A stretch of DNA of 64,000 nt from Parcubacteria group bacterium (GCA_943356745.1 CALRFT010000001.1:75946-139945); one strand, 5' to 3'; shown: positions 7,352 to 22,741, counted from the stretch's first letter. Numbers and translations are program-made. Notes: generated by a model from the sequence alone, not told the origin.

Positions 7352-9985
7352 ATTAATATTATTCATACTTTGGTATTTAGCCAGTGAGGCTTTAGTGAGA
7401 GGACCAAAATAGTCTGTTTCTCTTCCAGGTGAACCAGTTCCAACTTCAGTAAGTAAAGAACCATTTGTATTAAGAAATATCTGTAATGCTTTTACATCTT
7501 CACCTTTACTACCCAATGTCAGATCACGGATAAAAATATTCAAAGGTAATCCCACCGCCGGAGAATCTTGCACAACACCAGCTTCTTTTTGTAATGCTTG
7601 GAGCTGTAATTTAAGTTGATGTAATTGTTTTATAAGGCTTTCATATGACGGCAGAGGTACTTCTTTTTGACTACGAGACCCAGAACTTACAATAGTTGTT
7701 GGATAAATAACTTCTGAAGGTATTTCTTCAGCGACAGAAAATGAAATTATATAGTCTTCAGTATTTGGATTACCTACACTATCAGTACATTTAACATAAT
7801 ACGTATAACTATTACCATTTTCTAAGCTATTTACAACAACACTATGTGAAGTCCCTCCTGTTGTACTGAAAGTAACATCCATTGATGCATATGCCACAGC
7901 TGAAGTCGTATCATATTTACAAGTTGCTGTTTCGTTTGTAGTAAGAGATAGGGTTGTTGAAGTAGTATCAACTGAAAGTTCTGCTGAAGGAGCACCGGAA
8001 GAAAGAATTGGAGGGACGGCAGAAGAAACTATCTCATTAATAAATATTTCTGCCGGTAAATTATAGACACTACTGTCTGTTGGTACAACTAAACCGTTCG
8101 CAGTATCTCCATACCCTAACGAAACAGTAGCATCGCCACTCAGTGGTGAATTAAGTGTAATAGTAATTATATTATCAGATGTTCTCGCAACACTAGATAT
8201 TGCCACAGACACACCATTATCTTCCACCCTAAAACCTTGAATACCACTTGTTGGCAAAAGAGGTAGTGTGTTATCAGAAAACATAATAGCTATCTTATTT
8301 CTGGTGATATTTTCTTCTGAAATTAAATATTGAGGACCTCTTCCATCATCCCCGTTATAGAAATGATATTCTATCGCTGCCCACCAACGATTTGCTGCAA
8401 TTTCTATTTCTTCATTTGTTCTAAAATGAAGACCATCATTAGAGAGATTTACATCATATAAAGATGGACCAGCTAACACATTACTATTATCTTCCCAAGC
8501 ATCAAGTTGGGCTAGACGAATATTATTTAAATCCACAGCTGGTTCACCAGAAAATTCACCTATCTGTGCAACTACTGTTTTTAAACCAAAGTCATTATAT
8601 ATATTATTAACCATTGTATCTAAACTACTATTATAAGTAGTTCTTGAGGTTGCATTAGCAACATCAGTTTCGCCTTGCCAAAAAAGAACAGCTTTCATTT
8701 CCCCTATAGCATTTATACGACTTGCTAATGTTGTGTATAAACTTTGTCCTTTTTGCCACTGCGCAATACTTGTACCTCCCTGCGGTGGATCAGTAATGAA
8801 TGCAACAGGAACATCCTGACTTTCCATCAATCGAGTTGCGACAATTGGCCACACAGTTCCACCCACACCATCAGCTGGATCTGTAAGTTCAGCCCATGAA
8901 CCTGTAAACTTAGAGGCTTTCAGTGTAGGGTGAGAATAAACTTGATTACTAAGTCCTCTACCACTTGCATTACTTTGCCCAGCAATGGCATATATATCTC
9001 CCACACCGACATAAGCAGCAGAATCATTAACATCAGAATTATTACTAAACCTGACTTCTATACTTCCTTGACCAATATCTTGATTTTCTAAAACACCAGA
9101 GAATGTACCTCCACTTAAAGAAGCATCGATTGTGGTCCATGTACCGCCATTAAACCTAGCCTCTATTGCAACTGGTGAGCCAGTATATGTTCCACTTATA
9201 GAGATATCTGATTGATTATTATTATCTCTTTGAAAAACTTGATAATCAGAAGGACTTGTTATTGCTATAGCATCTGGTACAAAAGCCTGTGTTTCATAAA
9301 CAATATCATCTACATACATATCTCCCACACCTGAGCCATACCCAGCACTATATTGAACAAGACCTGAAGTGTAAGTACTATCAGTAACAGTGGTACCTAA
9401 TTGAGTATAATTAGTTCCATTATCAGAATAATAAAAACTAAGCTGGTTACCAGACACAGTTGCCTTAAACCACCGTGGGCTTTGAGCTGTTAGTGAAACT
9501 TCAGCAAGAATATCAAATGTGGTAGAGGTAACTTTATATACTCTTACCTTATTAGCACTCGCACTCGCGTCAGTATGATTAACCTGAAAAAGATAACCTT
9601 GTTTAAGTCCAGCGATTGCAGAATTACCCGATTGGGCACGCAAGGTAAAACCATGTCTACCACCCCCACTTTGATAAGCTTCTTTCCATGTCACCGTCTG
9701 ATCTGTATCCGAGGTAAAATTATTAAAAGTAATAGCAGCTGTATTTGCAGGTCCTGTGAGTCCAGTCGCTGTTAGTGAGTTACCTAACACAGCCTGATTG
9801 GCAACCTGAAATGTTCCAGTATTAGCTGTTGTATTAGCGGGAGTTTGACCAACAGTATCACTATTAAAGTTATAAGTTACTGTTGCGGCATATAAATTAA
9901 TAGTATTAAGTAAAAAAGTTATCAAAAAAAATACTAAACAAAGTAATATTTTTTTAGTTATTTTCAAAAATAAGTTATTGTACAT
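7286..9985 (-). CDS. surface-anchored carbohydrate esterase: lectin-like N-domain + SGNH/sialate-O-acetylesterase (DUF303/SASA)-family domain + Ig-like region + C-terminal peptidoglycan-binding domain
   Basis: Signal peptide; motifs AGQSNASGRG, FWQGETD, DGLHF typical of SASA/SGNH esterases; C-terminal PG_binding_1-like domain. Confidence 0.8.
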   Translation of the reverse strand: MYNNLFLKITKKILLCLVFFLITFLLNTINLYAATVTYNFNSDTVGQTPANTTANTGTFQVANQAVLGNSLTATGLTGPANTAAITFNNFTSDTDQTVTWKEAYQSGGGRHGFTLRAQSGNSAIAGLKQGYLFQVNHTDASASANKVRVYKVTSTTFDILAEVSLTAQSPRWFKATVSGNQLSFYYSDNGTNYTQLGTTVTDSTYTSGLVQYSAGYGSGVGDMYVDDIVYETQAFVPDAIAITSPSDYQVFQRDNNNQSDISISGTYTGSPVAIEARFNGGTWTTIDASLSGGTFSGVLENQDIGQGSIEVRFSNNSDVNDSAAYVGVGDIYAIAGQSNASGRGLSNQVYSHPTLKASKFTGSWAELTDPADGVGGTVWPIVATRLMESQDVPVAFITDPPQGGTSIAQWQKGQSLYTTLASRINAIGEMKAVLFWQGETDVANATSRTTYNSSLDTMVNNIYNDFGLKTVVAQIGEFSGEPAVDLNNIRLAQLDAWEDNSNVLAGPSLYDVNLSNDGLHFRTNEEIEIAANRWWAAIEYHFYNGDDGRGPQYLISEENITRNKIAIMFSDNTLPLLPTSGIQGFRVEDNGVSVAISSVARTSDNIITITLNSPLSGDATVSLGYGDTANGLVVPTDSSVYNLPAEIFINEIVSSAVPPILSSGAPSAELSVDTTSTTLSLTTNETATCKYDTTSAVAYASMDVTFSTTGGTSHSVVVNSLENGNSYTYYVKCTDSVGNPNTEDYIISFSVAEEIPSEVIYPTTIVSSGSRSQKEVPLPSYESLIKQLHQLKLQLQALQKEAGVVQDSPAVGLPLNIFIRDLTLGSKGEDVKALQIFLNTNGSLLTEVGTGSPGRETDYFGPLTKASLAKYQSMNNINPANGYFGPVTRNYITLQNLDY

Positions 9986-10215
9986 GTTTTATATTTTAAC
10001 TTAGATTTATAAATTTAAATAGTTAATTTAAATTAATATAAAAATATTACTTCTTGTCAACACAAACTCCGACCTATCATATTTTGCTTTGAGAAAGAAA
10101 TAAATAAAAAATGCAACAGACTCAACCAAAGTTTTAATTTTGTTTTATTGAAATAAATCCCACTACCGAACTACCTTTTTACAAAAGCTCTTTAATTTTT
10201 GACTTAGGAAGTATT

Positions 10216-10372
10216 AAAAACCACCCGAAGTTTTGGATGGTTTTTAAATAGCTTGTATATTTTATTATAAATATTAATATTTTAGAAATTTTAAATTAAC
10301 TTATGGTTAATAATCTAAATTCTGTAAAGTTATATAATTCCTAGTAACTAAACCAAAATATCCATTAGCCGG
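10216..10372. repeat. second copy of the ~157-bp 3′-end/terminator repeat (see 7195..7351)
   Basis: Sequence identity; differs by a few substitutions and one T indel. Confidence 0.85.
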
Positions 10373-13300
10373 AACTATACTGTTCGCTTTTTGATATGAA
10401 CTGAGTGCGTTTTTTGTTTGTTGTCCGAAGAATCCTGTTGCCCCTGCCGGGATTGAGTACCCTGCCTTAATCAGAAGTTCTTGAAGTTTCATAACATCAG
10501 CTCCACTCATTCCCAACTCTAGATCTCGTGAGTTTTGAGATGTTGCTGGTGAATTTGTATTTACGGCTGCTGAATTTTTGTTAATAAACGCTTTTGTGAT
10601 TGGTCCGAATACCCCAAGCGCTGGTGATATACCATTTGCTTTCTGGAATCGTGCAAGAGCTTGTCTTGTGAGTTCACCAAATGTATCTGTCTCATTATCA
10701 AGTGAGCCGGGACCGCTTAGCGCTACAGGGAAACCGTTTGTATTTAGGAAACGTTGCAGTTCGCGAGTAGTTGATACGTTCGGGCCAGCAGTGTTTGTAT
10801 TCGAGTTTGAAGTTTCTTGGTTCTCATCTTCATTTCCTCTTCTATCATCGTCATCATCTGAAACATCTTGTTTTTCTATTTTTCGAATTTGCTTCCTAGA
10901 CCCGCTTGAACTAATTCTATTTCTATTCACACTTGATATAGTTGCAGGATACGCATCTTCTCCTTCACCACTCCAATAATAAGTCCCAAGTGTGGTTTGA
11001 CTAAATGGACGATCCTCACCACTTTCAGCATATCCATTACCATTTGTGTCGATAATATTAAACACTGTCCAAGCACCTTCTCCATTCAATAGTCGATATG
11101 TGTTTCCTGAATCAGAATCATTAAAAACAACATTCTCAATATCTTCTGTATGGATCCATTGCTCTGCGTGAATATTATTTCCGATGAAACTACTGTCAGA
11201 AACAAAATATAAATCAATACCTTTTATAGAATCATAAACTTCTACTAATTCATATTCAGTACCTCCTGAAAAGTCAGCTCGGTATGAAGACGGTTCGTCA
11301 ATTTTAATACCTGCTCTGTATAAATCTCCAGCTTCAACATCATATGCACCAGTAAACATATCGTAGTAGTACCCTTGGAAATTCATTTCTATAAAGTTCC
11401 ATTGCACTTCTCCATCTGGATAGAGTACTACTTGAAAATGTATCGGGTACGTAGCTGAGTTATAATCAGATAAAGTTGACCCAAACCATTCGACTACCAC
11501 ATACTCATCATCTGGACTAAACACAGCAACATAATCCCCTTCAACAGATTCAGTTGTAAGTCCATCAAAACTTGCGAATAGCACATCTGCACTTAGGAAG
11601 TTTTTGTGATCACCATAGTCCGTGCAAATTGAACAAGATTCTGCTTCTTCAAGTAATTCAATAGATCCATTCACGTTGACTTCTATTGCGACAATATCGC
11701 GTCCTTGGAAATTGAAAGTGAATGGCAATGTGTGTGTAAATGAAGCATACGAAACACTATAGCTTTCATCAGCATCAAGAATATCAAGTGCTATAGATTC
11801 TGTATCAACTGATGGAATCTCAAGAAACTCACTTATCGTTGGCGTAATTGTGTTTTCACTAAATGTCACCTCTGAAGAGTCTCCAACATCAATACCGCTA
11901 CCGGAAACGTTTAACGTATTCCCTGTAATAATCGCACCGTCTGTATCAACTATTTCAATACCATTGTCGTTAATATTAGTTAGTACATTATCAGTAACTG
12001 TAATATCACTGTTTCGCCCTTCATCAGAATCAAAATCAATACCATCACCGTTTTCTACTCCATCAATTGTATTTTCAGAAATCAAAACATTCACACTATC
12101 TTCAAAATATATTCCATCACTATAAATATTAGTGAATGAGTTATTAGTTATCTCAGCATTCTCAACAACGTACATTGAAATACCGTCGTCATCTGTGTCT
12201 GATATCTCATTTTCTGTTACAACAAGATCGGTAATATAATCAAGATTCATACCGTGCCCTCCAGTACCTGACACAACAACATTTTGAATGACAATATCAC
12301 TGTTATAAATTTCTCCATCAAAACTATCATTGTAGGTTCTAAAAGTAAGACCGAAATCATAAGTATCAGCGATTGTACTATCTGAAATAGTCATTCCAGA
12401 TACGCCGCGTAACTCAATTCCGTCATCAGCCATATCACTAATGGTGACGTCTGTAATTATTGATGTACCTTGAGAATTATATAACTTAATTCCGTCATCA
12501 AATGCATCTAGAGTGATGTTTGAAATACTAATGCTATCATAACCAATACCAAAAATTGCATTCTCCCCATCTCCTATATTGCTACTTATCGTATGACCAG
12601 CACCATCAATAAATACATTGTCTGCTTCAATTGTAATACAATCTCCAAACACACCACTGATATCGTTTTGTAATTCATAATATCCAGATGCATCAACATC
12701 AAAACATTGCGTAACTTGGTATGGGTCTTCTGATGTTCCAGTTCCAAGCAATGGATCAAATGATTCCCATAAGAAACTTGGGTAGCCGTCATTTTCTGCA
12801 CTCATTTCCCAAATACTTGAAAAATTCCAAGAAACATCTGTATACGTACTTTGCGTTTTAGCTTGAACAGTAGTTACTTCATTCAATCCTAGACATGCGC
12901 CAGTCTGACACGCAACCTCTTGGGCAATTGATTCACTATCCCAGAATGAATTAGAAATTATCGTGTCTGTGGCATCTTTTGCAAAACCTCCAAAAAATGT
13001 TCCTCCATTATTTATGGTTAGCGCACCTCTTGAATACACGTTAGTAATGTTTGAGCTTGTAACATCAGATGCAAAGGACCCAGCCTGATCATTAGCTGTT
13101 ACTGAGCCGTCTGAGTAAGCATTCACAAACGTTGATACATTTCCATATCCCAAAAATCCTCCAACAACGTTGTTTCCCACAACATTTCCATGTGCAGCAA
13201 CTTGCGTAAATGTAGAACCAGGACCTTCGCATGCATCGTACCCAGTAAATCCTCCGACATAACTATTACCTGATTCCACATTTCCAGATGCAGACACTCT

Positions 13301-14506
13301 TAAAAACGAACTCTCACAAAATGAAGCTCCGACAAATCCCCCAGCATAACTTCCTATGGAAGTTACTTCTCCTGTAGCAATGGAATCTATAATTGTCGAA
13401 GTATAAATATTTCCAGCAAAACCTCCGACATACTCATTTCCAGAAACAATTCCACTTGCAGAACTGTCTGAAATTTGAGAGCTGCCTTGAACCTCTCCCG
13501 CAAATCCACCGGCATAATTTCCCTCAGCCGTTACTGATCCACTGGCTGTTGAGTCTTCGATTGTTGAACCATAAATTCTTCCAGCAAATCCTCCAGTATA
13601 AAAGCCATTCTTAGAGAAGAACTCAAGATATAAATCATCACCATCATTTGAAACGACATCTCCCGTGGCGTCAACATTATCAATACTAGAAGCTTCAACC
13701 TCCCCAAACGCACCTCCTACGTATTCACCTCCGTCAATATCTGCACTTGTACTACTGTTTGTGACAGTACTGTTATTTACTTCACCCACCAGTCCTCCAA
13801 TAACATTTCCAGATCCATGTACTGTACCACCAGTTACTGTGAGCTGTGTTGCTGTACTTCCATTAGCAATTTCTCCAGCAATACCTCCTCCATCGTAGGC
13901 CAAGTATGCTCGAACCATTCCTGTGTTATTTGTAAGGTTTTGTAGACCAACCCCTGAACCGTATCCCAGAAATCCCCCAGTACTTGATTGCCCAACAATT
14001 TGTGCATTGTCTAATATTACATTTTTAATTATTGCATTTGTCGCATAACCAATCAGACCTGCATAATCTTGATTTTTTCTAAATATCCACAAATTAGAGA
14101 TTGTGTGATTTTGACCATCAAGTGTTCCTGTAAAACCGTTTCCACTACCATTTAATGCATCATCTCGCCCAATCGGCTCAAATCCAAAGTATCCATTATT
14201 AACAACACCAACATATTCATCATCAATCAATGTTCCGCCCACCACACCGTCCACCCACTCATCAACATTTTCATTCCATGTCGCAGTTGCTGCACAGTCA
14301 ATGTCATTTCCAAGTTTATAGTACGCATCAAACTCCCCATTCATTTCCTGAAGTTGTGTACAGTTTGTGATAATAAATGCAGTTTCAATAGACAAACCAT
14401 CACCCGCACCTGAGAAAGCAAATATCTGATTTGCCGAAAATAATAATACTAATAAAAATAACCCTCTAAAAATTACTTGGTAAGATTTTTTGATTAAATG
14501 CACCAT
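10307..14506 (-). CDS. giant surface adhesin (1399 aa): signal peptide, GLUG-motif repeats, right-handed beta-helix (PbH1) repeats, acidic linker, two C-terminal peptidoglycan-binding domains
   Basis: Repeated (Y/V)xGGF(A/V/L)G motifs; NxxGxxxxxN beta-helix repeats; DDDDD linker; two PG_binding_1-like domains. Confidence 0.8.
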   Translation of the reverse strand: MVHLIKKSYQVIFRGLFLLVLLFSANQIFAFSGAGDGLSIETAFIITNCTQLQEMNGEFDAYYKLGNDIDCAATATWNENVDEWVDGVVGGTLIDDEYVGVVNNGYFGFEPIGRDDALNGSGNGFTGTLDGQNHTISNLWIFRKNQDYAGLIGYATNAIIKNVILDNAQIVGQSSTGGFLGYGSGVGLQNLTNNTGMVRAYLAYDGGGIAGEIANGSTATQLTVTGGTVHGSGNVIGGLVGEVNNSTVTNSSTSADIDGGEYVGGAFGEVEASSIDNVDATGDVVSNDGDDLYLEFFSKNGFYTGGFAGRIYGSTIEDSTASGSVTAEGNYAGGFAGEVQGSSQISDSSASGIVSGNEYVGGFAGNIYTSTIIDSIATGEVTSIGSYAGGFVGASFCESSFLRVSASGNVESGNSYVGGFTGYDACEGPGSTFTQVAAHGNVVGNNVVGGFLGYGNVSTFVNAYSDGSVTANDQAGSFASDVTSSNITNVYSRGALTINNGGTFFGGFAKDATDTIISNSFWDSESIAQEVACQTGACLGLNEVTTVQAKTQSTYTDVSWNFSSIWEMSAENDGYPSFLWESFDPLLGTGTSEDPYQVTQCFDVDASGYYELQNDISGVFGDCITIEADNVFIDGAGHTISSNIGDGENAIFGIGYDSISISNITLDAFDDGIKLYNSQGTSIITDVTISDMADDGIELRGVSGMTISDSTIADTYDFGLTFRTYNDSFDGEIYNSDIVIQNVVVSGTGGHGMNLDYITDLVVTENEISDTDDDGISMYVVENAEITNNSFTNIYSDGIYFEDSVNVLISENTIDGVENGDGIDFDSDEGRNSDITVTDNVLTNINDNGIEIVDTDGAIITGNTLNVSGSGIDVGDSSEVTFSENTITPTISEFLEIPSVDTESIALDILDADESYSVSYASFTHTLPFTFNFQGRDIVAIEVNVNGSIELLEEAESCSICTDYGDHKNFLSADVLFASFDGLTTESVEGDYVAVFSPDDEYVVVEWFGSTLSDYNSATYPIHFQVVLYPDGEVQWNFIEMNFQGYYYDMFTGAYDVEAGDLYRAGIKIDEPSSYRADFSGGTEYELVEVYDSIKGIDLYFVSDSSFIGNNIHAEQWIHTEDIENVVFNDSDSGNTYRLLNGEGAWTVFNIIDTNGNGYAESGEDRPFSQTTLGTYYWSGEGEDAYPATISSVNRNRISSSGSRKQIRKIEKQDVSDDDDDRRGNEDENQETSNSNTNTAGPNVSTTRELQRFLNTNGFPVALSGPGSLDNETDTFGELTRQALARFQKANGISPALGVFGPITKAFINKNSAAVNTNSPATSQNSRDLELGMSGADVMKLQELLIKAGYSIPAGATGFFGQQTKNALSSYQKANSIVPANGYFGLVTRNYITLQNLDY

Positions 14507-14594
14507 TCTTTAATAATAACTTAATTTAAAATATTGTAAAAATTTTTTTAAAATACCTGAATAACTTTTTATTTTTTATTCAACCTCAACAGTA

Positions 14595-14623
14595 AAACCA
14601 CCGATTGTACGATGGTTTTTTGT
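14595..14623 (-). terminator. intrinsic terminator
   Basis: AACCACCGATTGTACGATGGTTT hairpin + T-run. Confidence 0.6.
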
Positions 14624-14742
14624 TTTACTTTGATTTTTTATTTCTCTGAAATTTCTTTAAGTTTATCCAAAACTTTTGGCCACACGCAATCAAATAATTT
14701 ATCTTTTATATGAGAATATTTAATAAGCTAGCAAAACTATTT

Positions 14743-16500
14743 TTAAAAATAAGAAACTTGCCCTGTCTTAGAAATAGCTCCTCCAGAAATTGGAGAAAAT
14801 GTTTTTGGATTATCACTCTTATAAGCAGATCGGTCGATTGAAAGTATAGGTAATTCTGAACTGCCTCGAGCTATCCCGTCTTCATCACTGTGTCCATGAA
14901 TAACAAGATTTACTCCGAAAGATTTAAGTTTTGTCTCCAACTCCTTTTTTTGTTCCGCTGTAAGATTGGAATCTTCAGAGAAATTTATTCTTGATTTTGA
15001 ACTAGTCGAGATAAAGGTATCTCGCAATATATTAAAATTTGTAACCTGTGATGAACTTAAGGATTCTTGATTATCATCAAGATATGCTTCTAAGCAGTTT
15101 TGATAGAAAGTATTTATTTTAGTAATTGCATCTGAAATACTTTGACCTTCACTTATATTTTTCTCAATAATTCCCACCATTTCTTTTGTAAGATTTGTAT
15201 GAACATACAATGTGTCATCATACATTTGTATCAATTGTTGATTTTTGAGTGATTCTATTATTTCAGGCTGGGTTGTTCTTATATTTTCTTTAATTGAAGA
15301 TCTATTTTCTAAAATAGATGCACCTATTAGATTTTGAATACTACTTGGCATATGTTCAGACATCAACAGAATTTGCCTGATGCTAATTGGTGCAGAATCT
15401 ATATTTTCTATTAAGTTTTTATTAGTATTCAAGTCAGCTAACAAATTTTCTCGCGTTGAAATTTCTTTCGGGTCAAAATTATTTGTTTTCATGTGACGCA
15501 AGGTTCGCTCTTTTACTTGTATAACATTTTCCAACTCCTTAAGAATAATATCTTTTTTATTCACGACTTCAGAAATAATACTATCTCGTATTTGTTGTGG
15601 TAAAAATTCAGCAAGTTCAAGATTACCTGAATATTGAGTCAATCTGTCTTTCATATCTTTCTCAACAGGAGTTCCAAATTCAGTTGAAAAACCGCCAAGT
15701 ACAGCATTAAACATATTTTCATGATTACCAGAAAGCCAAACAACATCTCCTCCAGACTGCTCTGCAAGTTTTTTGAGCTTCAACAAATCAGAGTACACAC
15801 GCAAACCATCTGGAGTTCTGTCTCCGAGTATGTCTCCAACAAAAACAACTTTCTTATCTTGACCCGTCCAAGACATTTCACCATTTTCAAAAGTTGCCAA
15901 ATTTCTGTTTACTAAATGAGCAACAAAACTTTCATATGAACCATTCAGATCTCCTATTGGTTCTTGTTCGTGCTCACGGTATCTTTCTGGTAATTGAATA
16001 TTTTTTTCAAAACTAACTTTTTCTTCTAATTCCAAATTACTTTCCTGTACTGTTTCTACTGGTTCCGCCGTTGAAGTTTCTATTCCAATTTGTTTTTTAA
16101 GTTCTTGAATTTTTACTTCTTCCTCAACCTGAGCTGACATTTTTTGTTCTTTTTTATTCCAATCCAATTCACTAAAATGTAGTATCGCTTTTCTTATTCT
16201 TGCATTTTTAGCATTTTCTTCTTCACTTGTAGAAAGCGTTTGTTGAGCTAAAAAATCTTCCAATACGGGAAAATCAAAAGGATTATTTGTATTGTCCCGA
16301 CAGTTGTATGGAACAAGTCTGTATGCCTCTTGTTTCAAAGCATTAAAAACAGCCCCGTCTTCTCGTACTCCTTCAAGAATGTCTTCTATTGTTTGTTGTC
16401 CATTCTCAATTCTTTCAAAATATTCTTGTACTTTTAAAGAAAAAGGGTTTACCTGCTCTTTTTCATTTGTAGTTTCTGGTGTTTTTTTAGGATTTTCCAT
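14743..16500 (-). CDS. calcineurin-like metallophosphoesterase with ~230-aa insertion between metal-binding motifs
   Basis: GDILGDR (GDxxDR), LSGNHE (GNHE), VIHGHS (GH) motifs. Confidence 0.7.
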   Translation of the reverse strand: MENPKKTPETTNEKEQVNPFSLKVQEYFERIENGQQTIEDILEGVREDGAVFNALKQEAYRLVPYNCRDNTNNPFDFPVLEDFLAQQTLSTSEEENAKNARIRKAILHFSELDWNKKEQKMSAQVEEEVKIQELKKQIGIETSTAEPVETVQESNLELEEKVSFEKNIQLPERYREHEQEPIGDLNGSYESFVAHLVNRNLATFENGEMSWTGQDKKVVFVGDILGDRTPDGLRVYSDLLKLKKLAEQSGGDVVWLSGNHENMFNAVLGGFSTEFGTPVEKDMKDRLTQYSGNLELAEFLPQQIRDSIISEVVNKKDIILKELENVIQVKERTLRHMKTNNFDPKEISTRENLLADLNTNKNLIENIDSAPISIRQILLMSEHMPSSIQNLIGASILENRSSIKENIRTTQPEIIESLKNQQLIQMYDDTLYVHTNLTKEMVGIIEKNISEGQSISDAITKINTFYQNCLEAYLDDNQESLSSSQVTNFNILRDTFISTSSKSRINFSEDSNLTAEQKKELETKLKSFGVNLVIHGHSDEDGIARGSSELPILSIDRSAYKSDNPKTFSPISGGAISKTGQVSYF

Positions 16501-16538
16501 TTTTTTATTATAACAAATTTAGTCAATACAAAAAACAA

Positions 16539-16568
16539 AAAGCACCTGACGTTTCAGGTGCTTTTTAG
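16539..16568 (-). terminator. intrinsic terminator
   Basis: AGCACCTGA-CGTT-TCAGGTGCT + T-run. Confidence 0.7.
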
Positions 16569-16569
16569 A

Positions 16570-17667
16570 TTAGAAATCTCTTTTAAATCTTGGTGAATAT
16601 CGCTCCTCATCAAAATAACTAATCCACTCAGGAACGGAACGCTTTACTTCAGAATCTGCCGCCGCAAATATTTCTATATTTTCATAAAGTAATATTTGCT
16701 GGATCAAATTATAATCATTTTTAGAAAATTTACTCTGAAGATGCGGTATCTCTCTTTGAAAAGTTTCGTGAGACATCCAAAGTATCGGATTATTAATCGC
16801 CACACTTGTGTGATGACACATAACTCCTTGAGGCGCAATCGCAAAATGCATTTCATGTCCCAAAACTCCTTTTGCTTGTTGAATTAAAAATTTTTTATCA
16901 ATTCTTCTTTGAGAGTTTGAGATAATCCGATTAGTTACTTTTAAAGCATATTCATTCAATGTTCGAGCATAATATTCTGCAAATGACATAGAAAACTCTC
17001 CATTATCTGGAAGGTATTGAGTAAGTGATCCACGAAGACCTTTGCCATCTCCCTCGTTCCAAAAATCTCTGACCAAAGATCCCAAGTAAACTGAATTGTT
17101 TAATTCAATTTGTCCAATATCTCTCTCTAGGTTTTTTAAAGGAACAAGATTTGAACGTATCTCAAAAACAAATTCTCCTTTTTCCTCTAAAAGTTTTTTT
17201 ACAAAAACCCCACGTGCAATTTCAGAGATTAACATCTTCTCAAATTCTCCGACATACAATTGTTCAGGAACAATTGTCATTCGAAACGTTTGAAGTTTTT
17301 GAGAGAAAAAAGTAGTTAGGAACCATTCAATTCTTTCAACTGTCTCTAAAGCAAGCTCGTATACATTTGTATTACCACTACTTACCTTTGAAAGATTCAA
17401 CGCTCCAAACTCTTGCACCAAGCCATGGTTTTTCATTTGAGGAACAAGACCAAACGAAGATTGGTCATTTGGACCAGAATAGAAAAGTCTATACTGCTTT
17501 TTTCTTTGTCCAATAAATTTTTCAAAAGCCGAGAAAGATGCTTGCACATTTGGATCAATGATTAAACTTGTGGTTTTTTCTTCACGACGAGCCAATGGAC
17601 ACGGTGGACAACCTTGTTCGCAGCTTCGTTCAGCTGGGAAAATTTCTACAGTTGGTAGTGGTTTCAT
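16570..17667 (-). CDS. hypothetical protein with N-terminal CX3CX2C cysteine cluster and HEMHF (HExxH) motif; ORF-track extension to TTG at 17718 runs through the heptamer repeat
   Basis: ATG at 17665-17667 (MKPLPTV…); motifs CEQGCPPC and LGHEMHF. Confidence 0.55.
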   Translation of the reverse strand: MKPLPTVEIFPAERSCEQGCPPCPLARREEKTTSLIIDPNVQASFSAFEKFIGQRKKQYRLFYSGPNDQSSFGLVPQMKNHGLVQEFGALNLSKVSSGNTNVYELALETVERIEWFLTTFFSQKLQTFRMTIVPEQLYVGEFEKMLISEIARGVFVKKLLEEKGEFVFEIRSNLVPLKNLERDIGQIELNNSVYLGSLVRDFWNEGDGKGLRGSLTQYLPDNGEFSMSFAEYYARTLNEYALKVTNRIISNSQRRIDKKFLIQQAKGVLGHEMHFAIAPQGVMCHHTSVAINNPILWMSHETFQREIPHLQSKFSKNDYNLIQQILLYENIEIFAAADSEVKRSVPEWISYFDEERYSPRFKRDF

Positions 17668-17710
17668 TTGTATTTTGTATTTTGTATTTTGTATTTTGTA
17701 TTTTGTATTT
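17667..17710. repeat. heptanucleotide SSR (TTTGTAT)6 = (ATACAAA)6 on the gene strand, abutting the start codon of 16570..17667
   Basis: Six perfect 7-nt units read directly; followed by T5. Confidence 0.9.
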
Positions 17711-17755
17711 TTTCGCAATTTATCATTATATCCTTATTATGTCAATTTATTATAT

Positions 17756-17786
17756 AAAAACCACCCGGAACGTCAGGTGGTTTTTT
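17756..17786 (-). terminator. intrinsic terminator
   Basis: AACCACCCGGAACGTCAGGTGGTT + T-run. Confidence 0.7.
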
Positions 17787-17968
17787 GTTTTACATATTCT
17801 TAATATTATCTACAAGCTCATGGATCAGATAGATATCAATGAATTTGGTATTAAAGAAAAACTGAAAACAGAGGTTGAGAGATTCAAAAAGTTTCAGAAG
17901 TGTACCGTCCACGGGTGTTTGGTAAGTAAGTACAGTACTAATATTATTAATAATCTTGCCTTTTTTCA

Positions 17969-20362
17969 TTAGGTTTCTTGATTATCAATATCATGAATCA
18001 TATTTTTTATTTCTGAAGCATTATCAGGGTTTACAGCTTCAAAATAACTAATAGTGGACGAATCCTTATTTCTAGCTAAAAATTCTGCAAAGGTTTTTTC
18101 ATCTTTGTCTTCTAGATTGTCCGCTATTTGCATCCACGCTTTTCTTTGCTCTTCTTGTGGCTTGGTCTTTTCATAAACGGCCGGAACAAAGATAGACATA
18201 TTCGCATCAATTTTTTCCCCTACCATTTTTTCTAAAATTAGAACGTCTTTCATTTTCGCAACCTTCCTCAACTTCGGATTAAGTAAAAACTCCATCATCA
18301 AGTCATTATACTCACTTTCATATTTGCTATACCCATATTGACCATATTCAGCCTCGCTTATTATTATTGGCAAAGAGACATTCTTATTAGAATCTTTGTT
18401 ATATTTAATAATATTTTCATATATGCTTGTCGCCAGTTCATGACTGTGACAAGAGCCTAAAATTATTATAGGGGTGTCGTTTATCTTATTTTCAAATCTT
18501 TTAATCAAAGCCGAAGAAATTTGTTCTGGATCAATATATAAAGTATCATTCAAAGACATAGACTCAGGGGATCCGTGCCCAGAAAAAACTAAACACAAAT
18601 TAGAAGTGTCATCTATTTTTGCAAAAAAATCATCAACCGAATTTGTCTCATTTTTTCTAAAAACTTCAAGGCTTTTTGCATTTTGTAATCTAACACCATC
18701 TTCACATTTTTGATTAAAAAATCTTACAGAGTCAGCTTCTTGCCCAACACCTCTTTCTTCCATTGGAATAATTTCAGTATTTGCAATAACCATTACATTC
18801 CTATCTTTAAATAACGGGGTTTCTAAAAATATTTTATCTGTTCGAGCTTCTATTATTTTTTCAAACATCTTTTCAAAATCTTTTTCATCAAAATGTGCAT
18901 CTGGTGAATCAATGAGCAAGGACCGAGCAATCATAACCAACATCTCAGACTGCTCTTGCGAATCAAAATTTTCTAGAAAAACCGGAAGGTTTTTATGATA
19001 ATTGAATTTCTTTATCAAATCTATCGCTGGATCCTTTAAAAAAAGTTCGTATTTTGGATCAGCGTCTTTCCCGATAATGTCTTTGGACAACTTTCCTATA
19101 TCACTTTTTTCATTTATCAACTCGAAAGTATGTTCTGTTGAGCGCGGGCCTTTTGCTGACAAATTCTTGAGAACGCCAACCAAATCTTCCAGATCTTTAT
19201 TGTCATTTATATTATACAGAGTCTTAATTTGTTTAATTAGAGAGTAGTAATCCTCAACAAAATTAACTGACGGTCGCGATATCTTGGAAAGTTCACAAAG
19301 CATCTCTTTAAAAAGAGGGTTTTTAAGGGTTTCTAAATTAGGAATTTCATACCAATCTTTCTTATCTAAAATAAATTCATTAATATGCCCAATGTTGTAT
19401 CCTAATGATTTAAAATAAACAAACAAATCTTTTCCTTCCTTCTGTCCCAAAAATGCATTCAGTTCTTCGGAAGATTCTTGGGCGGTTGTCCCATCCAACA
19501 TCTGATATTCAGTGTTGAAAATAACTGACAAATCTTTTCCTGTTATGTAGTCTTGGGTTAGCGTCTGCTCCAGTATATTTGGTTGCTCCTCCATCAAATC
19601 TGGATGCCTCTCATACCTAAGAAAATCTCCATACACAACGACATCGCTTTCTTTAATTTTAGAAATTATTTCATCACTGAAATCAAAGCCCTCAACCGTG
19701 AAGACTTCTAAACTCTGCTTACTAAAAGTATCTTCATATTCACGATTAAATATAATCGGGAGCTCGGCGATTTTTTCTATATTTTCAAAATATAACTCTG
19801 TTGCTTCTTCTTTTATGGAAACCAGACTATTCGGCAAATACCCCATATCTGGTCTTTCGTGGCCTTTGGACTTTAATATCCAACTAACTCTTTGGACATT
19901 GTTTCTAACTTCTTCATCCTGTAAATCTTCAAAATAATTTTGCTCAAGAAGTGTGTTTAATATTTCTGGCGGAATATAAAAATTTTGGCCAAACCAAGAG
20001 GTCGATTCCAAAACATCCTCATTGTATAAAACTTCTAAAACACTACTATTGTTATCAAAAGCTTTAATATCATCCTCTGTCCAAATATCTCTGAAACATT
20101 TCTCTATTTTTTCTTTTTCCTCAGGATTCGGGGGTTTTATGTAATCTAATTTTGATATAGCTTTATTTTCTCCTAATACCTCTCGTGACTGAACCTTATT
20201 CTTTTCCAACATCTCTTTTTCAGATGGAGCTTTATCTCCTGAAATCAAAAGCGCTAAAGATCCTATAAGTAAAAGACGATTAAGGCCTTTTTTTGCTTTA
20301 GCTATTGTTTCGGTGCCAAAACCTTCTTTTTCTACTTTTTCTTTTTTTGGTATTCCTTCCAT
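17969..20362 (-). CDS. large hypothetical protein (797 aa), N-terminal TM anchor, C-terminal caspase-like (clan CD/CHAT-like) His–Cys dyad region
   Basis: LLLIGSLALLISG TM; VMVIAN…LVFSGHGSP…(45 aa)…IIILGSCHSH spacing typical of caspase-fold peptidases. Confidence 0.5.
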   Translation of the reverse strand: MEGIPKKEKVEKEGFGTETIAKAKKGLNRLLLIGSLALLISGDKAPSEKEMLEKNKVQSREVLGENKAISKLDYIKPPNPEEKEKIEKCFRDIWTEDDIKAFDNNSSVLEVLYNEDVLESTSWFGQNFYIPPEILNTLLEQNYFEDLQDEEVRNNVQRVSWILKSKGHERPDMGYLPNSLVSIKEEATELYFENIEKIAELPIIFNREYEDTFSKQSLEVFTVEGFDFSDEIISKIKESDVVVYGDFLRYERHPDLMEEQPNILEQTLTQDYITGKDLSVIFNTEYQMLDGTTAQESSEELNAFLGQKEGKDLFVYFKSLGYNIGHINEFILDKKDWYEIPNLETLKNPLFKEMLCELSKISRPSVNFVEDYYSLIKQIKTLYNINDNKDLEDLVGVLKNLSAKGPRSTEHTFELINEKSDIGKLSKDIIGKDADPKYELFLKDPAIDLIKKFNYHKNLPVFLENFDSQEQSEMLVMIARSLLIDSPDAHFDEKDFEKMFEKIIEARTDKIFLETPLFKDRNVMVIANTEIIPMEERGVGQEADSVRFFNQKCEDGVRLQNAKSLEVFRKNETNSVDDFFAKIDDTSNLCLVFSGHGSPESMSLNDTLYIDPEQISSALIKRFENKINDTPIIILGSCHSHELATSIYENIIKYNKDSNKNVSLPIIISEAEYGQYGYSKYESEYNDLMMEFLLNPKLRKVAKMKDVLILEKMVGEKIDANMSIFVPAVYEKTKPQEEQRKAWMQIADNLEDKDEKTFAEFLARNKDSSTISYFEAVNPDNASEIKNMIHDIDNQET

Positions 20363-20444
20363 GTCTCCATTATACCAAAAAATCCTTATGTTATATCTCT
20401 GAGTATTTTAATACTCGTCGGAGTCCGAACTCCGCTCGTGTTTG

Positions 20445-20515
20445 CTGCCCGACAAGGATTCGAACCTCGATACCTTGGACCAAAACCAAGTGTCCTACCT
20501 TTAGACGATCGGGCA
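20445..20515 (-). tRNA. tRNA-Gln (anticodon UUG)
   Basis: UGCCCGA/UCGGGCA acceptor stem, 3-bp D-stem, anticodon loop UUUUGGU, T-arm CGAGG-TTCGAAT-CCTTG. Confidence 0.8.
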
Positions 20516-20899
20516 ATATTTAATTTATATTCTTTAGAATATTTTCTTTTTCGGTACGTTTATTTTTTAAAAGTCTTTCGTATAAACGAGATTCTGTTTC
20601 AGAACTAAATTGTTTAGAGAAAACAAGAACAAAAGGTTTGAATCCTTTTGTTTATTGAACTTTTCCTGAATTATATTCAGACAATCTTCTTTCCAGAGAA
20701 TTAGTACTACCAACATAATACCACTCTCTTAAAAGACTTTTTATGATATAAACGTACCACATATTTGTTGACTACCATTAGACCTGCCTGCGCAGGCAGG
20801 CGATCGGGCAATAATATACTGTGTATATATTGCTTTTTGCAACGCTTTATATATTGCCCTATTTTACAAAAAAAATCAAGATTTTGTTTGGGTAAAGGT

Positions 20900-20931
20900 A
20901 AAAAGGGTCCGCCTTTGGCGGACCCTTTTTT
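20900..20931. terminator. intrinsic terminator (GGGTCCGCC-TTTG-GCGGACCC + T-run) overlapping sigma gene stop
   Basis: 9-bp GC stem. Confidence 0.75.
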
Positions 20932-21505
20932 AGAGATTAAACTTTTTTCTATTTTTTTCAAAATTAACACGAAAATATCTCATTCGACCTAAAACTGTAT
21001 TAACAGAAATCTTAAGATATTTTGCAATTTCTTGAAAAGATTTCCCTCTCGACATTCGAAGAAGATATACAACTTTTTGTTCTCTTGGTACACTCTTAAA
21101 AAAACGTTTAAAGTTTTCCTGATCTTCCTCTGAAAAAATTTCATTATATTGCGGTATTTGAATAGAAATATTTTTTCTTTCAAACTCCAAAATATTAATA
21201 GGTACCTTATTGTACTTTTTCTTGAGCCTCAAATAGTCAATACACAAGTTTCTGGTTATTTGCGATGCAAGACCATGAAGGCCCCCATCTCACTCTTCAA
21301 ATCTTTTATCAATATCAATAAGATACAACCAAAGCCTGATACAAACTTCTTGGAAGATATCTTTTTGATCATCAAGAGGTATTGTGTATTGATATATAAT
21401 ACCTACACATTTCCTTTGAATAGACCTAACAAGTTTTTCAAAAGCTTGCCCGTCTTGGTGTTCCATAACACGAGCAATAAGCTCTTTTTGTTCTTGTTTT
21501 TCCAT
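20930..21505 (-). pseudogene. sigma-70 family (ECF-type) RNA polymerase sigma factor interrupted by one in-frame TGA (plus 21290-21292); region 2 half = 21290..21505, region 4 half = 20930..21247
   Basis: Both ORFs share one frame, separated by a TGA and 14 sense codons; joined sequence KRFEE*DGGLHGLASQITRNLCIDYLRLKKK fits sigma region 2; C-terminal HTH region 4. Confidence 0.6.
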
Positions 21506-21673
21506 TTAAGTATAGGGTTTTAGTGGTACAAAAGTTCAAGTAAAGATTATAAACAAAAACAAACATTCAGCAAGAAAAATCCCCTCGAACAAATTCAAGG
21601 GGATTTTAGATGCAGGTTTGAAACAACATACTAAAACACTTTATTTTAAACTAACCTATTTGAAGTATATCAC

Positions 21674-21711
21674 AAAAAAAACAGGGCGCCGAAAGGCGCC
21701 CTGTTTTTTTT
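21674..21711 (-). terminator. intrinsic terminator after dnaX
   Basis: CAGGGCGCC-GAAA-GGCGCCCTG + T8. Confidence 0.8.
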
Positions 21712-21715
21712 GTGT

Positions 21716-22741
21716 TTATTCCATTATCTCAATTACTGCGAGCTCAAGTGGAAGAGTTTGAATAAAAGCCTTTCCTTGTCTTCCTTCTGCCCGAAGAAGT
21801 ATTTCAAGAGTTTTTGAGGTAATTCTTTTTGTATCATCCTTGAGAAGTTCCAGGTAAAAAGAAGTATCGTCACCAAGCTCAGCTTTAACCTCTTCTTTCA
21901 TATCGGGTGCATATCGAAGGAGTAGCATTTGCCTTGTATGTTTTATCAAAAGCTTAAGGAATATTTCCATATTCAAAGTGTGAACCTGTGCTTCACTGAT
22001 AATCTCAAATAATTTTGTAGTGTCGTCTGAAACTAATGCTTTCAAAAAATCTTGAATCAGTTTTTTTGGAGGAGCTCCGACAACTCGAGAAACTTCTCCG
22101 TGATCAAGTTTCTTATCTCCCGAATATGAAATGACTTTTTGCAAAATACTTTGAGAATCTCGAAATGAACCATTTGCCATAAATGCAATAAGTTCTGCGC
22201 TTTCAGTTGCCAAAATGTAACCTTCTTTTCCAGCGAGTTCTTTTAAATGCTCCGCAAGCATTTTTGCTGTTGGATCTTTGAATGTAAACACCTGACATCG
22301 TGAAAGAATCGTTTCTGGAATTTTATCAAGTTCTGTTGTCGCAAGAACAAAGATCACATGTCGAGGTGGCTCTTCGAGAGTTTTAAGAAGTGCATTAAAA
22401 GCTTCTTTGGTAAGCATGTGAACCTCGTCGATAATATACACTTTGTATTCAGAATCAAATGGAAGTGTGTGCACAGCTTCACGAAGTTCTCGAATATCGT
22501 CGATACCTCGATTTGAAGCAGCGTCAATCTCGATAGTGTCATTTGTCGAAACACCAAGACGTTTCGCAAGAATTCTTGCAACAGTCGTCTTCCCTGTTCC
22601 GCGTGAACCATAGAAAAGATAGGCGTGAGAGATTGTTCCTTGTTTAAGAGAACCTTGAAGAACATCAGTCACATGTCCTTGTCCTACCACATCTTTAAAA
22701 TCTGTTGGTCTATATTTTCGATAAAGCGCTTCGTGTGTCAT
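21716..22741 (-). CDS. dnaX: DNA polymerase III subunit gamma/tau
   Basis: Walker A GSRGTGKTT, clamp-loader AAA+ motifs; start at MTHEALYRKYRP (ORF-track upstream extension runs through a terminator). Confidence 0.85.
   Translation of the reverse strand: MTHEALYRKYRPTDFKDVVGQGHVTDVLQGSLKQGTISHAYLFYGSRGTGKTTVARILAKRLGVSTNDTIEIDAASNRGIDDIRELREAVHTLPFDSEYKVYIIDEVHMLTKEAFNALLKTLEEPPRHVIFVLATTELDKIPETILSRCQVFTFKDPTAKMLAEHLKELAGKEGYILATESAELIAFMANGSFRDSQSILQKVISYSGDKKLDHGEVSRVVGAPPKKLIQDFLKALVSDDTTKLFEIISEAQVHTLNMEIFLKLLIKHTRQMLLLRYAPDMKEEVKAELGDDTSFYLELLKDDTKRITSKTLEILLRAEGRQGKAFIQTLPLELAVIEIME

What the first reader, a model, noticed from the sequence alone, without database searches (positions are those of the whole stretch)
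14743..20362. Three-gene block next to tRNA-Gln: split-motif metallophosphoesterase + CX3CX2C/HExxH protein + 797-aa caspase-like membrane protein — candidate uncharacterised system
Gene 1 has calcineurin-like motifs GDxxDR / GNHE / GH with a ~230-aa insertion. Gene 2 has a radical-SAM-like CX3CX2C cluster (CEQGCPPC) near its N-terminus and an HEMHF zincin motif, and is preceded by a slippage-prone heptamer repeat. Gene 3 has a TM anchor and a C-terminal VMVIAN…SGHG…(45 aa)…GSCHS arrangement typical of caspase/CHAT-fold peptidases. All three are co-directional with short gaps and abut a tRNA gene and an odd non-coding region. A phosphoesterase and a caspase-like protease are the kind of components seen in signalling or abortive-infection/defence modules, but this combination matches no system I can name.
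Basis: inference. Interest (0 to 1): 0.6.

Follow-up and report, generated by a model that had tools for sequence, protein, structure and literature searches.

The report
Three unrelated neighbouring genes, not a system
The three genes are real and two of the predicted enzyme folds hold up (an exported caspase/legumain-like protease and a protein-phosphatase-like enzyme, plus an unknown cysteine-cluster protein), but they are neighbours only in this one species, so they look like ordinary independent genes of a tiny symbiotic-type bacterium, not a new signalling or defence system.

Summary
The three minus-strand ORFs exist exactly as described: g3 797 aa (20362..17969), g2 365 aa from its conserved ATG (17667..16570), g1 585 aa (16500..14743), with tRNA-Gln just upstream.

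- g3 is an exported clan-CD (legumain/caspase/gingipain-like) cysteine peptidase. It belongs to a family that no Pfam model detects above threshold. His596 and Cys638 are invariant in 77/77 relatives, and the AlphaFold model matches legumain, PIGK and caspase-7.
- g1 is a Metallophos/PPP-like (Shewanella-phosphatase-like) enzyme. It has a family-wide GDxNG variant of motif I and a long insertion.
- g2 belongs to a small uncharacterised family with a conserved N-terminal CX3CX2C on an alternating beta/alpha fold. A radical-SAM-like Fe-S enzyme is possible but unproven. Its HExxH motif is not conserved.

The "system" reading fails. Profile HMMs find the three families together only in contigs of the same species (~96% nt identity), and never in 12 g1, 7 g2 or 4 g3 loci from other organisms. 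No family has a conserved neighbour. Each gene is followed by a hairpin plus T-run and preceded by its own -10 element. PADLOC gives nothing significant. The whole 27-kb region is co-directional anyway. Base composition is not island-like. Strain variation starts at the tRNA, outside the block. Interest is low.

The parts
20444..20515 (-). tRNA-Gln (anticodon UUG). Synteny with sister-strain contigs ends exactly at its 3' end.
   Evidence: ARAGORN; Rfam tRNA 57.5 bits; the blastn alignment to L006/L009 stops at window 20447.
17969..20362 (-). g3: 797-aa exported clan-CD (legumain/caspase/gingipain-like) cysteine peptidase with a long helical N-terminal region.
   Evidence: ORF. 77 relatives by full phmmer. 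AlphaFold2 mean pLDDT 76, about 85-97 across aa 440-720. Foldseek PDB top hits are legumain 4n6o (E 3e-4, TM 0.55 on target), PIGK 7wld and caspase-7. dN/dS 0.33 against the sister strain.
20237..20284 (-). g3 aa 27-42 (LNRLLLIGSLALLISG): signal anchor or signal peptide preceded by KAKKG.
   Evidence: Hydropathy 1.56. Model helix 18-40. Close homologues have the same kind of segment or a lipobox-like LxxC. One family member carries PG_binding_1.
18128..18820 (-). g3 peptidase domain (aa ~515-745). His596 is at codon 18575-18577 (SGHG) and Cys638 at codon 18449-18451 (GSCHS). SEAEYGQ (aa 669-675) carries the near-invariant E672 and Q675.
   Evidence: H596 77/77, G597 75/77, C638 77/77, E672 75/77, Q675 72/77. 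His follows model strand 589-594 and Cys follows strand 632-636, as in clan CD (PMC4357240).
17756..17785 (-). Terminator-like hairpin plus U-run after g3.
   Evidence: RNAfold -16.8 kcal/mol, z = -3.75, 0 of 200 shuffles as stable.
17717..17745 (-). Promoter-like TTGACA-17-TAAATT upstream of g2.
   Evidence: Consensus scan, 10 of 12 matches. This is a consensus match only.
17667..17711 (-). Perfect heptamer microsatellite (AAATACA/TTTGTAT, 6.4 copies) in the g2 5' leader, abutting the ATG.
   Evidence: TRF, 100% matches. The sister strains are about 22 nt shorter here and lack the array.
16570..17667 (-). g2: 365-aa protein of an uncharacterised family. CEQGCPPC lies at 17599-17622 and the invariant IAPQGVM..H..S..I.N...W..H block starts at 16819-16839.
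   Evidence: 15 proteins found by the search, this gene's own included. 14 of them aligned; invariant columns. AlphaFold2 pLDDT 83, pTM 0.85, alternating beta/alpha. No Pfam, NCBIfam or PDB sequence hit. dN/dS 0.24.
16536..16567 (-). Strong intrinsic-terminator-like hairpin between g2 and g1.
   Evidence: 14-bp stem plus T-run. RNAfold -19.3 kcal/mol, z = -6.17.
14743..16500 (-). g1: 585-aa Metallophos/PPP-like phosphoesterase. Motifs: GDLNG 15940-15954, GDILGDR 15817-15837, GNHE 15718-15729, YVHTN 15193-15207, HGH 14890-14898, SIDRS 14827-14841.
   Evidence: Pfam PF00149 24.5 bits, above the 21.5 cutoff. Family profile hits Shewanella cold-active phosphatase 1v73/2z72 at E 9e-8. Invariant motif columns in 17 sequences. 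dN/dS 0.12.
14594..14621 (-). Hairpin plus T-run after g1, ahead of the promoter-like site of the 1399-aa gene.
   Evidence: Read from the sequence. Promoter-like TTTACA-16-TATTAT at 14540..14513.
10307..14506 (-). Downstream neighbour: 1399-aa surface protein (GLUG, beta-helix/NosD, two PG_binding_1). It is not part of a system with the block.
   Evidence: Pfam. It is absent next to g1, g2 or g3 homologues elsewhere.

Best explanation
The interval holds three independent, separately transcribed genes of a small-genome Patescibacteria (CPR, Paceibacteria-like) bacterium. Their adjacency is a feature of this species' gene order only.

(1) g3 is made with an N-terminal signal anchor and exposed outside the cytoplasmic membrane. 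Its C-terminal caspase/haemoglobinase-fold domain uses a His596/Cys638 dyad to cleave peptide bonds. The near-invariant Glu672 next to the active-site region suggests a basic P1 preference (inferred). Its likely role is processing or degrading envelope or host-surface proteins. This fits the run of peptidoglycan-binding surface proteins downstream.

(2) g2 is a cytoplasmic enzyme. Its loop after the first beta-strand carries three conserved cysteines (CX3CX2C), most likely ligating an Fe-S cluster on an alternating beta/alpha fold, as in a radical-SAM enzyme (inferred; about 40% likely).

(3) g1 is a cytoplasmic binuclear-metal phosphoesterase of the PPP/Shewanella-like branch. Asn replaces the motif-I His, and it has a family-specific helical insertion and N-terminal extension. 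It most likely dephosphorylates proteins or dinucleoside polyphosphates (inferred).

Shown: the folds and motifs, their conservation, and the lack of co-conservation. Inferred: substrates, cellular location and monocistronic transcription.
For: No co-conservation:
- HMMs of the three families were searched against all ORFs of 11 genome loci with g1 homologues (37-56% identity, L010-L020), against the g2 loci L001-L005, L028 and L029, and against g3 loci L021-L025. The families co-occur only in the same-species contigs L006-L009, L026 and L027.
- All-vs-all clustering finds no recurrent neighbour for any family.
- The nearest relatives split the pair. L032 reads EamA-g1(70%)-179aa-large protein. 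L005 reads g2(66%)-179aa-large protein, with the large protein 86% identical.
- g3 homologues sit after ribosomal protein L2, next to pyrG, def/hisS or gatB.
- g2 homologues sit next to ftsI/mraZ, MFS, CAP or recombinase genes.

Separate transcription signals:
- Hairpin plus U-run after g3 (-16.8 kcal/mol, z -3.75) and after g2 (-19.3, z -6.2), and after g1.
- TGnTATAAT lies 6-7 nt before the ATG of g3 and of g1.

Different evolutionary history:
- dS against the sister strain is 0.02 for g3 and 0.20 for g2 and g1. The identity step falls in the g3-g2 spacer.

Folds:
- See parts.

Not a defence system or island:
- Best PADLOC hit E 0.044.
- No g2 relatives in viral contigs.
- GC 0.32-0.34, like the flanks.
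- All large ORFs from 519 to 27489 are co-directional.
Against: - Within the species the order g3-g2-g1-1399aa is fully conserved, so the genes could be co-regulated there.
- g1 and g2 occupy the same genomic slot in two related organisms. This could reflect an ancestral g2-g1 pair.
- The sample of independent contexts is small, especially for g3 (4 loci). Many contigs are short, so a partner more than 3-8 kb away would be missed.
- Genome-wide co-occurrence was not tested.
- Terminators and promoters are sequence predictions only.
- The function of g2 is unknown, so a functional link cannot be excluded on biochemical grounds.
Confidence: 0.7

Rival explanations
1. One reading: the phosphoesterase, the Cys-cluster protein and the caspase-like protease act together as one signalling, abortive-infection or defence module inserted next to tRNA-Gln.
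For: The genes are adjacent and co-directional, and the order is conserved within the species. They sit next to a tRNA at which strain synteny breaks, and next to decayed GIY-YIG and sigma-factor genes. Caspase-like proteases and phosphoesterases do occur in defence systems (general knowledge).
Against: - The families do not co-occur in any locus from another organism.
- PADLOC gives no significant hit.
- Each gene has its own terminator.
- g3 carries an export signal, and its close relatives include lipobox-type forms. A protease outside the cell is hard to reconcile with an intracellular abortive-infection effector.
- The block lies on the conserved side of the tRNA breakpoint and has ordinary base composition.
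- g3 has a different divergence history from g2 and g1.
Confidence: 0.05
2. Only g2 and g1 are functionally linked, as an Fe-S enzyme plus a phosphoesterase. g3 is unrelated.
For: The spacer between them is only 69 nt. They have the same synonymous divergence against the sister strain (dS 0.198 and 0.196), unlike g3. In two related organisms g1 or g2 sits immediately upstream of the same 179-aa gene and large-protein gene, which is compatible with an ancestral g2-g1 pair.
Against: - Those same two loci each carry one gene without the other at that position.
- None of 12 g1 loci has g2, and none of 7 g2 loci has g1.
- The strongest terminator-like hairpin of the region lies between them.
Confidence: 0.1
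3. g3 is a legumain/GPI8/PorU-style transpeptidase ('sortase-like') that matures the peptidoglycan-binding surface proteins encoded just downstream (1399 aa, 899 aa, 577 aa).
For: The structural matches include the GPI transamidase subunit PIGK and plant asparaginyl ligases. g3 appears to be exported. The downstream genes encode PG_binding_1 surface proteins. One g3 relative itself carries PG_binding_1.
Against: g3 homologues elsewhere are flanked by housekeeping genes, not surface-protein genes. There is no evidence for a sorting signal in the neighbours. Hydrolysis is the default activity of clan CD enzymes.
Confidence: 0.1

Closest known systems
Clan CD cysteine peptidases: legumain/GPI8 (C13), gingipain/PorU (C25), caspases (C14)
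   Same: The predicted alpha/beta sandwich of g3 matches legumain, PIGK and caspase-7. The His-Gly comes at the end of one strand and the small residue plus Cys at the end of the next, as described for the clan (PMC4357240). There are weak Pfam hits to C25 for g3 and to C13 for 5 of 39 relatives.
   Different: No Pfam clan-CD model reaches its gathering score (C25 20.3 vs 23 bits). Sequence identity to solved structures is about 10%. A roughly 430-aa helical region precedes the domain, in place of a C-terminal prodomain (legumain) or Ig-like domains (gingipain). The conserved D444, R480, R622, E672 and Q675 are family-specific. The loci of relatives examined look like Patescibacteria-type small genomes.
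Shewanella-like (Shelph) / bacterial PPP-family phosphatases, e.g. cold-active protein-tyrosine phosphatase 1v73/2z72; PrpE/ApaH
   Same: g1 has the Metallophos domain. GDxxDR, GNHE, the motif-IV His and the GH motifs align to 1v73. There is a weak NCBIfam hit to PrpE.
   Different: Motif I is GDxNG in all 17 family members, not GDxHG. About 120 extra residues lie between GNHE and the motif-IV His. There is a conserved 170-aa N-terminal extension. The protein is about 585 aa against about 340 aa.
Radical SAM superfamily (e.g. MoaA)
   Same: In g2 the CX3CX2C motif immediately follows the first beta-strand of an alternating beta/alpha fold. The highest-TM structural hits in two libraries are MoaA (prob 0.80, TM 0.32-0.35) and a phage 'Fe-S oxidoreductase' (TM 0.33).
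   Different: None of the 14 members hits Radical_SAM or any related Pfam model at E <= 10. There is no PDB sequence hit. hhalign against MoaA aligns only the Cys motif. There is no aromatic residue before the third Cys and no conserved GGE-type motif. One member lacks the third Cys.
Caspase/CHAT-containing defence systems (PADLOC 'caspase' models, CRISPR-associated CHAT proteases)
   Same: The protease fold class is shared.
   Different: The best PADLOC hit has E 0.044 at 11 bits. There is no sensor or partner domain and no conserved neighbourhood. The protease appears to be exported.

Membership tests
Clan CD cysteine peptidase (caspase/haemoglobinase fold), for g3 | Alpha/beta/alpha fold built on a central, mostly parallel beta-sheet | tested here: met
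   The AlphaFold2 model has pLDDT about 85-97 over aa 440-720. The Foldseek PDB top 50 hits are almost all legumain, PIGK or caspases; the best has E 3e-4 and TM 0.55-0.59 on the target. This rests on a predicted, not a solved, structure.
Clan CD cysteine peptidase, for g3 | His/Cys catalytic dyad at the C-terminal ends of consecutive strands (His-Gly ... small residue-Cys) | tested here: met
   H596 77/77, G597 75/77 and C638 77/77. The dyad residues follow strands 589-594 and 632-636. Criterion from PMC4357240.
Pfam Peptidase_C25 / C13 / C14 / CHAT, for g3 | Score at or above the family's gathering threshold | tested here: not met
   C25 scores 20.3 bits against a 23-bit cutoff. There is no C13, C14 or CHAT hit for g3. 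5 of 39 relatives hit C13 weakly.
Clan CD cysteine peptidase, for g3 | Proteolytic activity dependent on the Cys | not testable with these tools
   Needs an enzyme assay with a C638A control.
Metallophos (PF00149) superfamily, for g1 | Pfam gathering score and the five metal/phosphate motifs | tested here: met
   24.5 bits against 21.5. GDxNG, GDxxDR, GNHE, H434 and HGH are invariant in 17 sequences.
PPP / Shewanella-like phosphatases, for g1 | Canonical GDxHG motif I | tested here: not met
   All 17 family members have Asn (N186) in place of His. The profile is nevertheless most similar to 1v73/2z72 (E 9e-8 over 94 residues).
Radical SAM superfamily, for g2 | CX3CX2C in the loop after beta-1 of a partial TIM barrel | tested here: met
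   C16 and C20 are invariant and C23 is present in 13 of 14 members. The motif lies between strand 6-9 and helix 39-54 of an alternating beta/alpha model.
Radical SAM superfamily, for g2 | Detectable sequence or structure homology to known members (PF04055 and related; solved structures); SAM-binding motifs | tested here: inconclusive
Zincin metallopeptidase (HExxH), for g2 | Conserved HExxH | tested here: not met
   HEMHF (aa 271-275) is present only in this species. It is not conserved in 13 homologues.
Multi-gene system or operon (g3+g2+g1) | Co-occurrence of the genes in the genomes of other organisms | tested here: not met
   Zero co-occurrence in 12 g1, 7 g2 and 4 g3 independent loci. 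No conserved neighbours.
Known anti-phage defence systems (PADLOC-DB) | Significant match of any component | tested here: not met
   The only hit is g3 to the 'caspase' model at E 0.044, 11 bits.
tRNA-associated genomic island | Variable presence between strains, atypical composition, integrase or att repeats | tested here: not met
   The block is present in all same-species contigs shown. GC equals that of the flanks. The variable DNA lies on the other side of the tRNA.

The most novel reading that the evidence does not exclude
g3 may found a Patescibacteria-centred family of exported legumain/GPI8-like clan-CD enzymes. In this reading they work as surface-protein transpeptidases or host-directed proteases of episymbiotic bacteria. 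Independently, g2 may found a new, highly divergent radical-SAM-like Fe-S enzyme family. The three-gene 'system' itself remains possible only if the partners act in trans and are scattered in other genomes.
Probability: 0.12. Interest if true: 0.5.

Novelty: new member of a known kind. Interest (0 to 1): 0.2.

Why it matters
As a candidate system it does not matter, because the combination is an accident of gene order in one species. The by-products are modestly useful for annotating 'dark' Patescibacteria proteins:
- a protease family that no Pfam model detects above threshold, with a clear clan-CD dyad and an export signal, relevant to how these episymbionts remodel their own or their host's surface;
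- a PPP-like phosphatase lineage with an Asn-for-His motif I;
- a rare CX3CX2C protein family with no detectable relatives among described families.

Tried and rejected
- The word-indexed protein search for g3 found only the query itself. The exhaustive phmmer search was needed to find the family.
- The search for related loci with g3 alignments failed twice because no stretch was conserved enough. g3 contexts therefore rest on 4 independent look-ups.
- The single metagenome scan went to g2 and added only two new contexts.
- The viral-contig scan for g2 found nothing.
This is treated as no evidence.
- Zincin reading of g2: rejected.
- TTG start of g2 at 17718: rejected.
- The small ORF overlapping the g3 stop (47 aa in sister strains): rejected as a gene, because a 1-nt indel shifts its frame between strains.
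- Island reading of the block: rejected.
- Rfam scan of 14000-22000: only the tRNA is above threshold. The other hits are terminator look-alikes below their gathering scores.
- Code-25 (TGA = Gly) reading of the sigma-factor stop: rejected, because the long Gly-rich ORFs nearby are uninterrupted under table 11.

Full report
**1. What is there**

Table-11 ORF calling gives three minus-strand ORFs at the reported coordinates:
- g3: 20362..17969, 797 aa.
- g2: 17718..16570 from a TTG start.
- g1: 16500..14743, 585 aa.

tRNA-Gln(UUG) lies at 20515..20444 on the same strand. Downstream is a 1399-aa GLUG/beta-helix/PG-binding surface protein. Every large ORF between 519 and 27489 is on the minus strand, so co-directionality is the local norm. 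GC content is 0.32-0.34 in the block and in its flanks. All three genes are under purifying selection against a sister strain, with dN/dS of 0.33, 0.24 and 0.12. They are real genes.

**2. g3**

The word-indexed search found only the query itself. An exhaustive phmmer search of 1.8 billion representatives found 77 relatives, with the conserved part at aa ~430-790.
- Conservation across all 77: H596 and C638 are invariant. G597 is present in 75, E672 in 75, and D444, R480, R622 and Q675 in nearly all (alignment blocks).
- Structure: an AlphaFold2 model built on 39 sequences has pLDDT about 85-97 over aa 440-720. His596 lies just after strand 589-594 and Cys638 just after strand 632-636.
- Fold search: the Foldseek PDB list is almost entirely legumain, the GPI-transamidase subunit PIGK and caspases (best 4n6o, E 3e-4, TM 0.55 on the target).
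- This is the clan-CD arrangement as reviewed in PMC4357240.
- Pfam models stay under threshold: C25 gives 20.3 bits against 23 for g3, and C13 hits 5 of 39 relatives weakly.
- Export: g3 has a basic stretch followed by LNRLLLIGSLALLISG (aa 27-42). Close relatives have an equivalent anchor or a lipobox-like LxxC, and one carries PG_binding_1. The protease is probably displayed outside the membrane.

**3. g1**

- g1 passes the Pfam Metallophos cutoff.
- It has 26 homologues at 33-95% identity.
- In a 17-sequence alignment the following are invariant: GDxNG(S), GDILGDR, GNHENMF, YxHT(N), HGHxDE and SxDR.
- The family profile hits only the Shewanella cold-active protein-tyrosine phosphatase among solved structures (1v73/2z72, E about 1e-7). 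The later motifs line up as well.
- g1 is therefore a PPP/Shelph-like phosphoesterase with three family-wide peculiarities: Asn for His in motif I, about 120 extra residues after GNHE, and a 170-aa N-terminal extension.

**4. g2**

- The true start is the ATG at 17667. Sister strains lack the heptamer array but keep the ATG and everything after it.
- The search found 15 proteins, g2's own sequence included. In the 14-sequence alignment, C16 and C20 are invariant and C23 is present in 13 of 14. Also conserved are E8, Q18, G19, RSNL (171-174), NR (246-247) and a long IAPxGVMxxHxSxxIxNxxxWxxH block.
- HEMHF is not conserved, so the zincin idea is rejected.
- The AlphaFold2 model is confident (pLDDT 83, pTM 0.85) and alternates beta and alpha elements, with the Cys loop after strand 1. 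This matches the radical-SAM layout.
- Nothing confirms homology, however. There is no Pfam hit in any member at E <= 10 and no PDB sequence hit. Foldseek gives only weak matches, although the best by TM score are MoaA and a phage Fe-S oxidoreductase. hhalign against MoaA aligns only the motif.
- I rate 'Fe-S, radical-SAM-like enzyme' at about 40%.

**5. Is it a system?**

No, on five independent lines of evidence.

(a) Co-conservation.
- HMMs of the three families were run on all ORFs of the context loci: 11 GTDB genome loci with g1 homologues plus L032, seven g2 loci, and four independent g3 loci. They detect the queried family each time and never a second one.
- The only exceptions are L006-L009, L026 and L027. 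These are about 96% identical to the window at the DNA level and therefore the same species.
- No family has any recurrent neighbour.
- The closest non-conspecific relatives are telling. L032 has EamA-g1-179aa-large protein. L005 has g2-179aa-large protein, with the large protein 86% identical. Each gene occurs there without the other.
- g3 relatives lie among ribosomal-protein, pyrG/ftsEX, def/hisS or gatB genes.
- g2 relatives lie among dcw-cluster, MFS, CAP-domain or recombinase genes.

(b) Transcription signals.
- There is a hairpin plus U-run after g3 (-16.8 kcal/mol, z -3.75), after g2 (-19.3 kcal/mol, z -6.2) and after g1.
- TGnTATAAT lies 6-7 nt upstream of the g3 and g1 start codons, and a TTGACA-type site lies upstream of g2.

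(c) Compartment. g3 appears to be exported, whereas g1 and g2 have no export signal.

(d) No defence signature. PADLOC gives nothing significant, and no g2 relative occurs in viral contigs.

(e) History. dS against the sister strain is 0.02 for g3 and 0.20 for g2 and g1. The identity step falls in the g3-g2 spacer. Recombination has treated them as separate units.

**6. Island question**

The block is present in all the same-species contigs shown. What varies is the DNA on the far side of tRNA-Gln. Homology to the sister contigs ends at the tRNA's 3' end (window 20447). Those contigs carry, at that position, a haem-oxygenase-like gene, a ParB-methylase, an SNase-domain gene and no tRNA. Beyond it lies an ECF sigma-factor gene with an in-frame TGA.

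**7. Verdict**

What remains is three individually interesting but ordinary 'hypothetical proteins' of a Patescibacteria genome:
- a new clan-CD protease family;
- a variant PPP-like phosphatase;
- an unknown CX3CX2C protein.

Interest is 0.2. The novelty class is new members of known kinds, with g2 left unassigned.

Noticed in passing
window 17667-17711: A perfect 7-nt microsatellite (6.4 copies) sits in the g2 leader. It is expanded only in this strain; the sister strains are about 22 nt shorter and lack the array. It could modulate g2 expression by slippage.
   Followed up: partly
window 20930-21505 (-), TGA at 21290-21292: An ECF-type sigma-70 gene (regions 2 and 4 detected across the join) is interrupted by a single in-frame TGA. 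It is either a pseudogene or a read-through/recoding site. The long ORFs nearby argue against genetic code 25.
   Followed up: partly
window 20520-20762 (-), TAA at 20652-20654; repeat 20798-20813 vs 20503-20518: A GIY-YIG nuclease gene (Pfam E 1.6e-15) has one in-frame stop and lies directly upstream of tRNA-Gln. It is preceded by a 16-nt copy (15/16) of the tRNA's 5' end plus a GC-rich palindrome. It may be a remnant of a mobile or homing element.
   Followed up: partly
window 20447 / L006 1-6076: Synteny with same-species contigs breaks exactly at the 3' end of tRNA-Gln. The sister strains carry, at that position, a haem-oxygenase-like gene, a ParB-N6/N4 methylase, an SNase-domain gene and small ORFs, with no tRNA within 6 kb. 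This is a possible integrated element or a rearrangement.
   Followed up: partly
window 7352-10216: The 899-aa SASA-esterase/PG_binding_1 gene is absent from sister contig L006. It is an indel within the run of surface-protein genes.
   Followed up: no
window 10216-20447 vs L006: Divergence between the strains is mosaic. g3 is about 99% identical (dS 0.02), while g2 and g1 are 89-96% identical (dS 0.20), and the 1399-aa gene alternates between 89% and 99.6%. This is a signature of homologous recombination between strains.
   Followed up: partly
L005 and L032 (also L001): In related organisms either g2 or g1, but not both, sits immediately upstream of a homologous 179-aa gene and a large protein that is 86% identical between the two. 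This suggests a variable slot next to a large surface-protein gene.
   Followed up: partly
L003 and the contig of P0011: Two distant g2 homologues lie beside or inside the division/cell-wall cluster (mraZ-rsmH-ftsL-...-ftsI). Other homologues do not, so the link is weak.
   Followed up: no
window 20359-20379 and 16497-16516 (-): Extended -10 elements (TGnTATAAT) lie only 6-7 nt upstream of the ATG of g3 and of g1. This suggests leaderless or near-leaderless mRNAs.
   Followed up: no
window 17790-17969 (-): A small ORF overlaps the g3 stop codon (TAATG) and is called as a 47-aa gene in the sister contigs. Its frame differs between the strains because of a 1-nt indel, so it is probably not coding.
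   Followed up: yes
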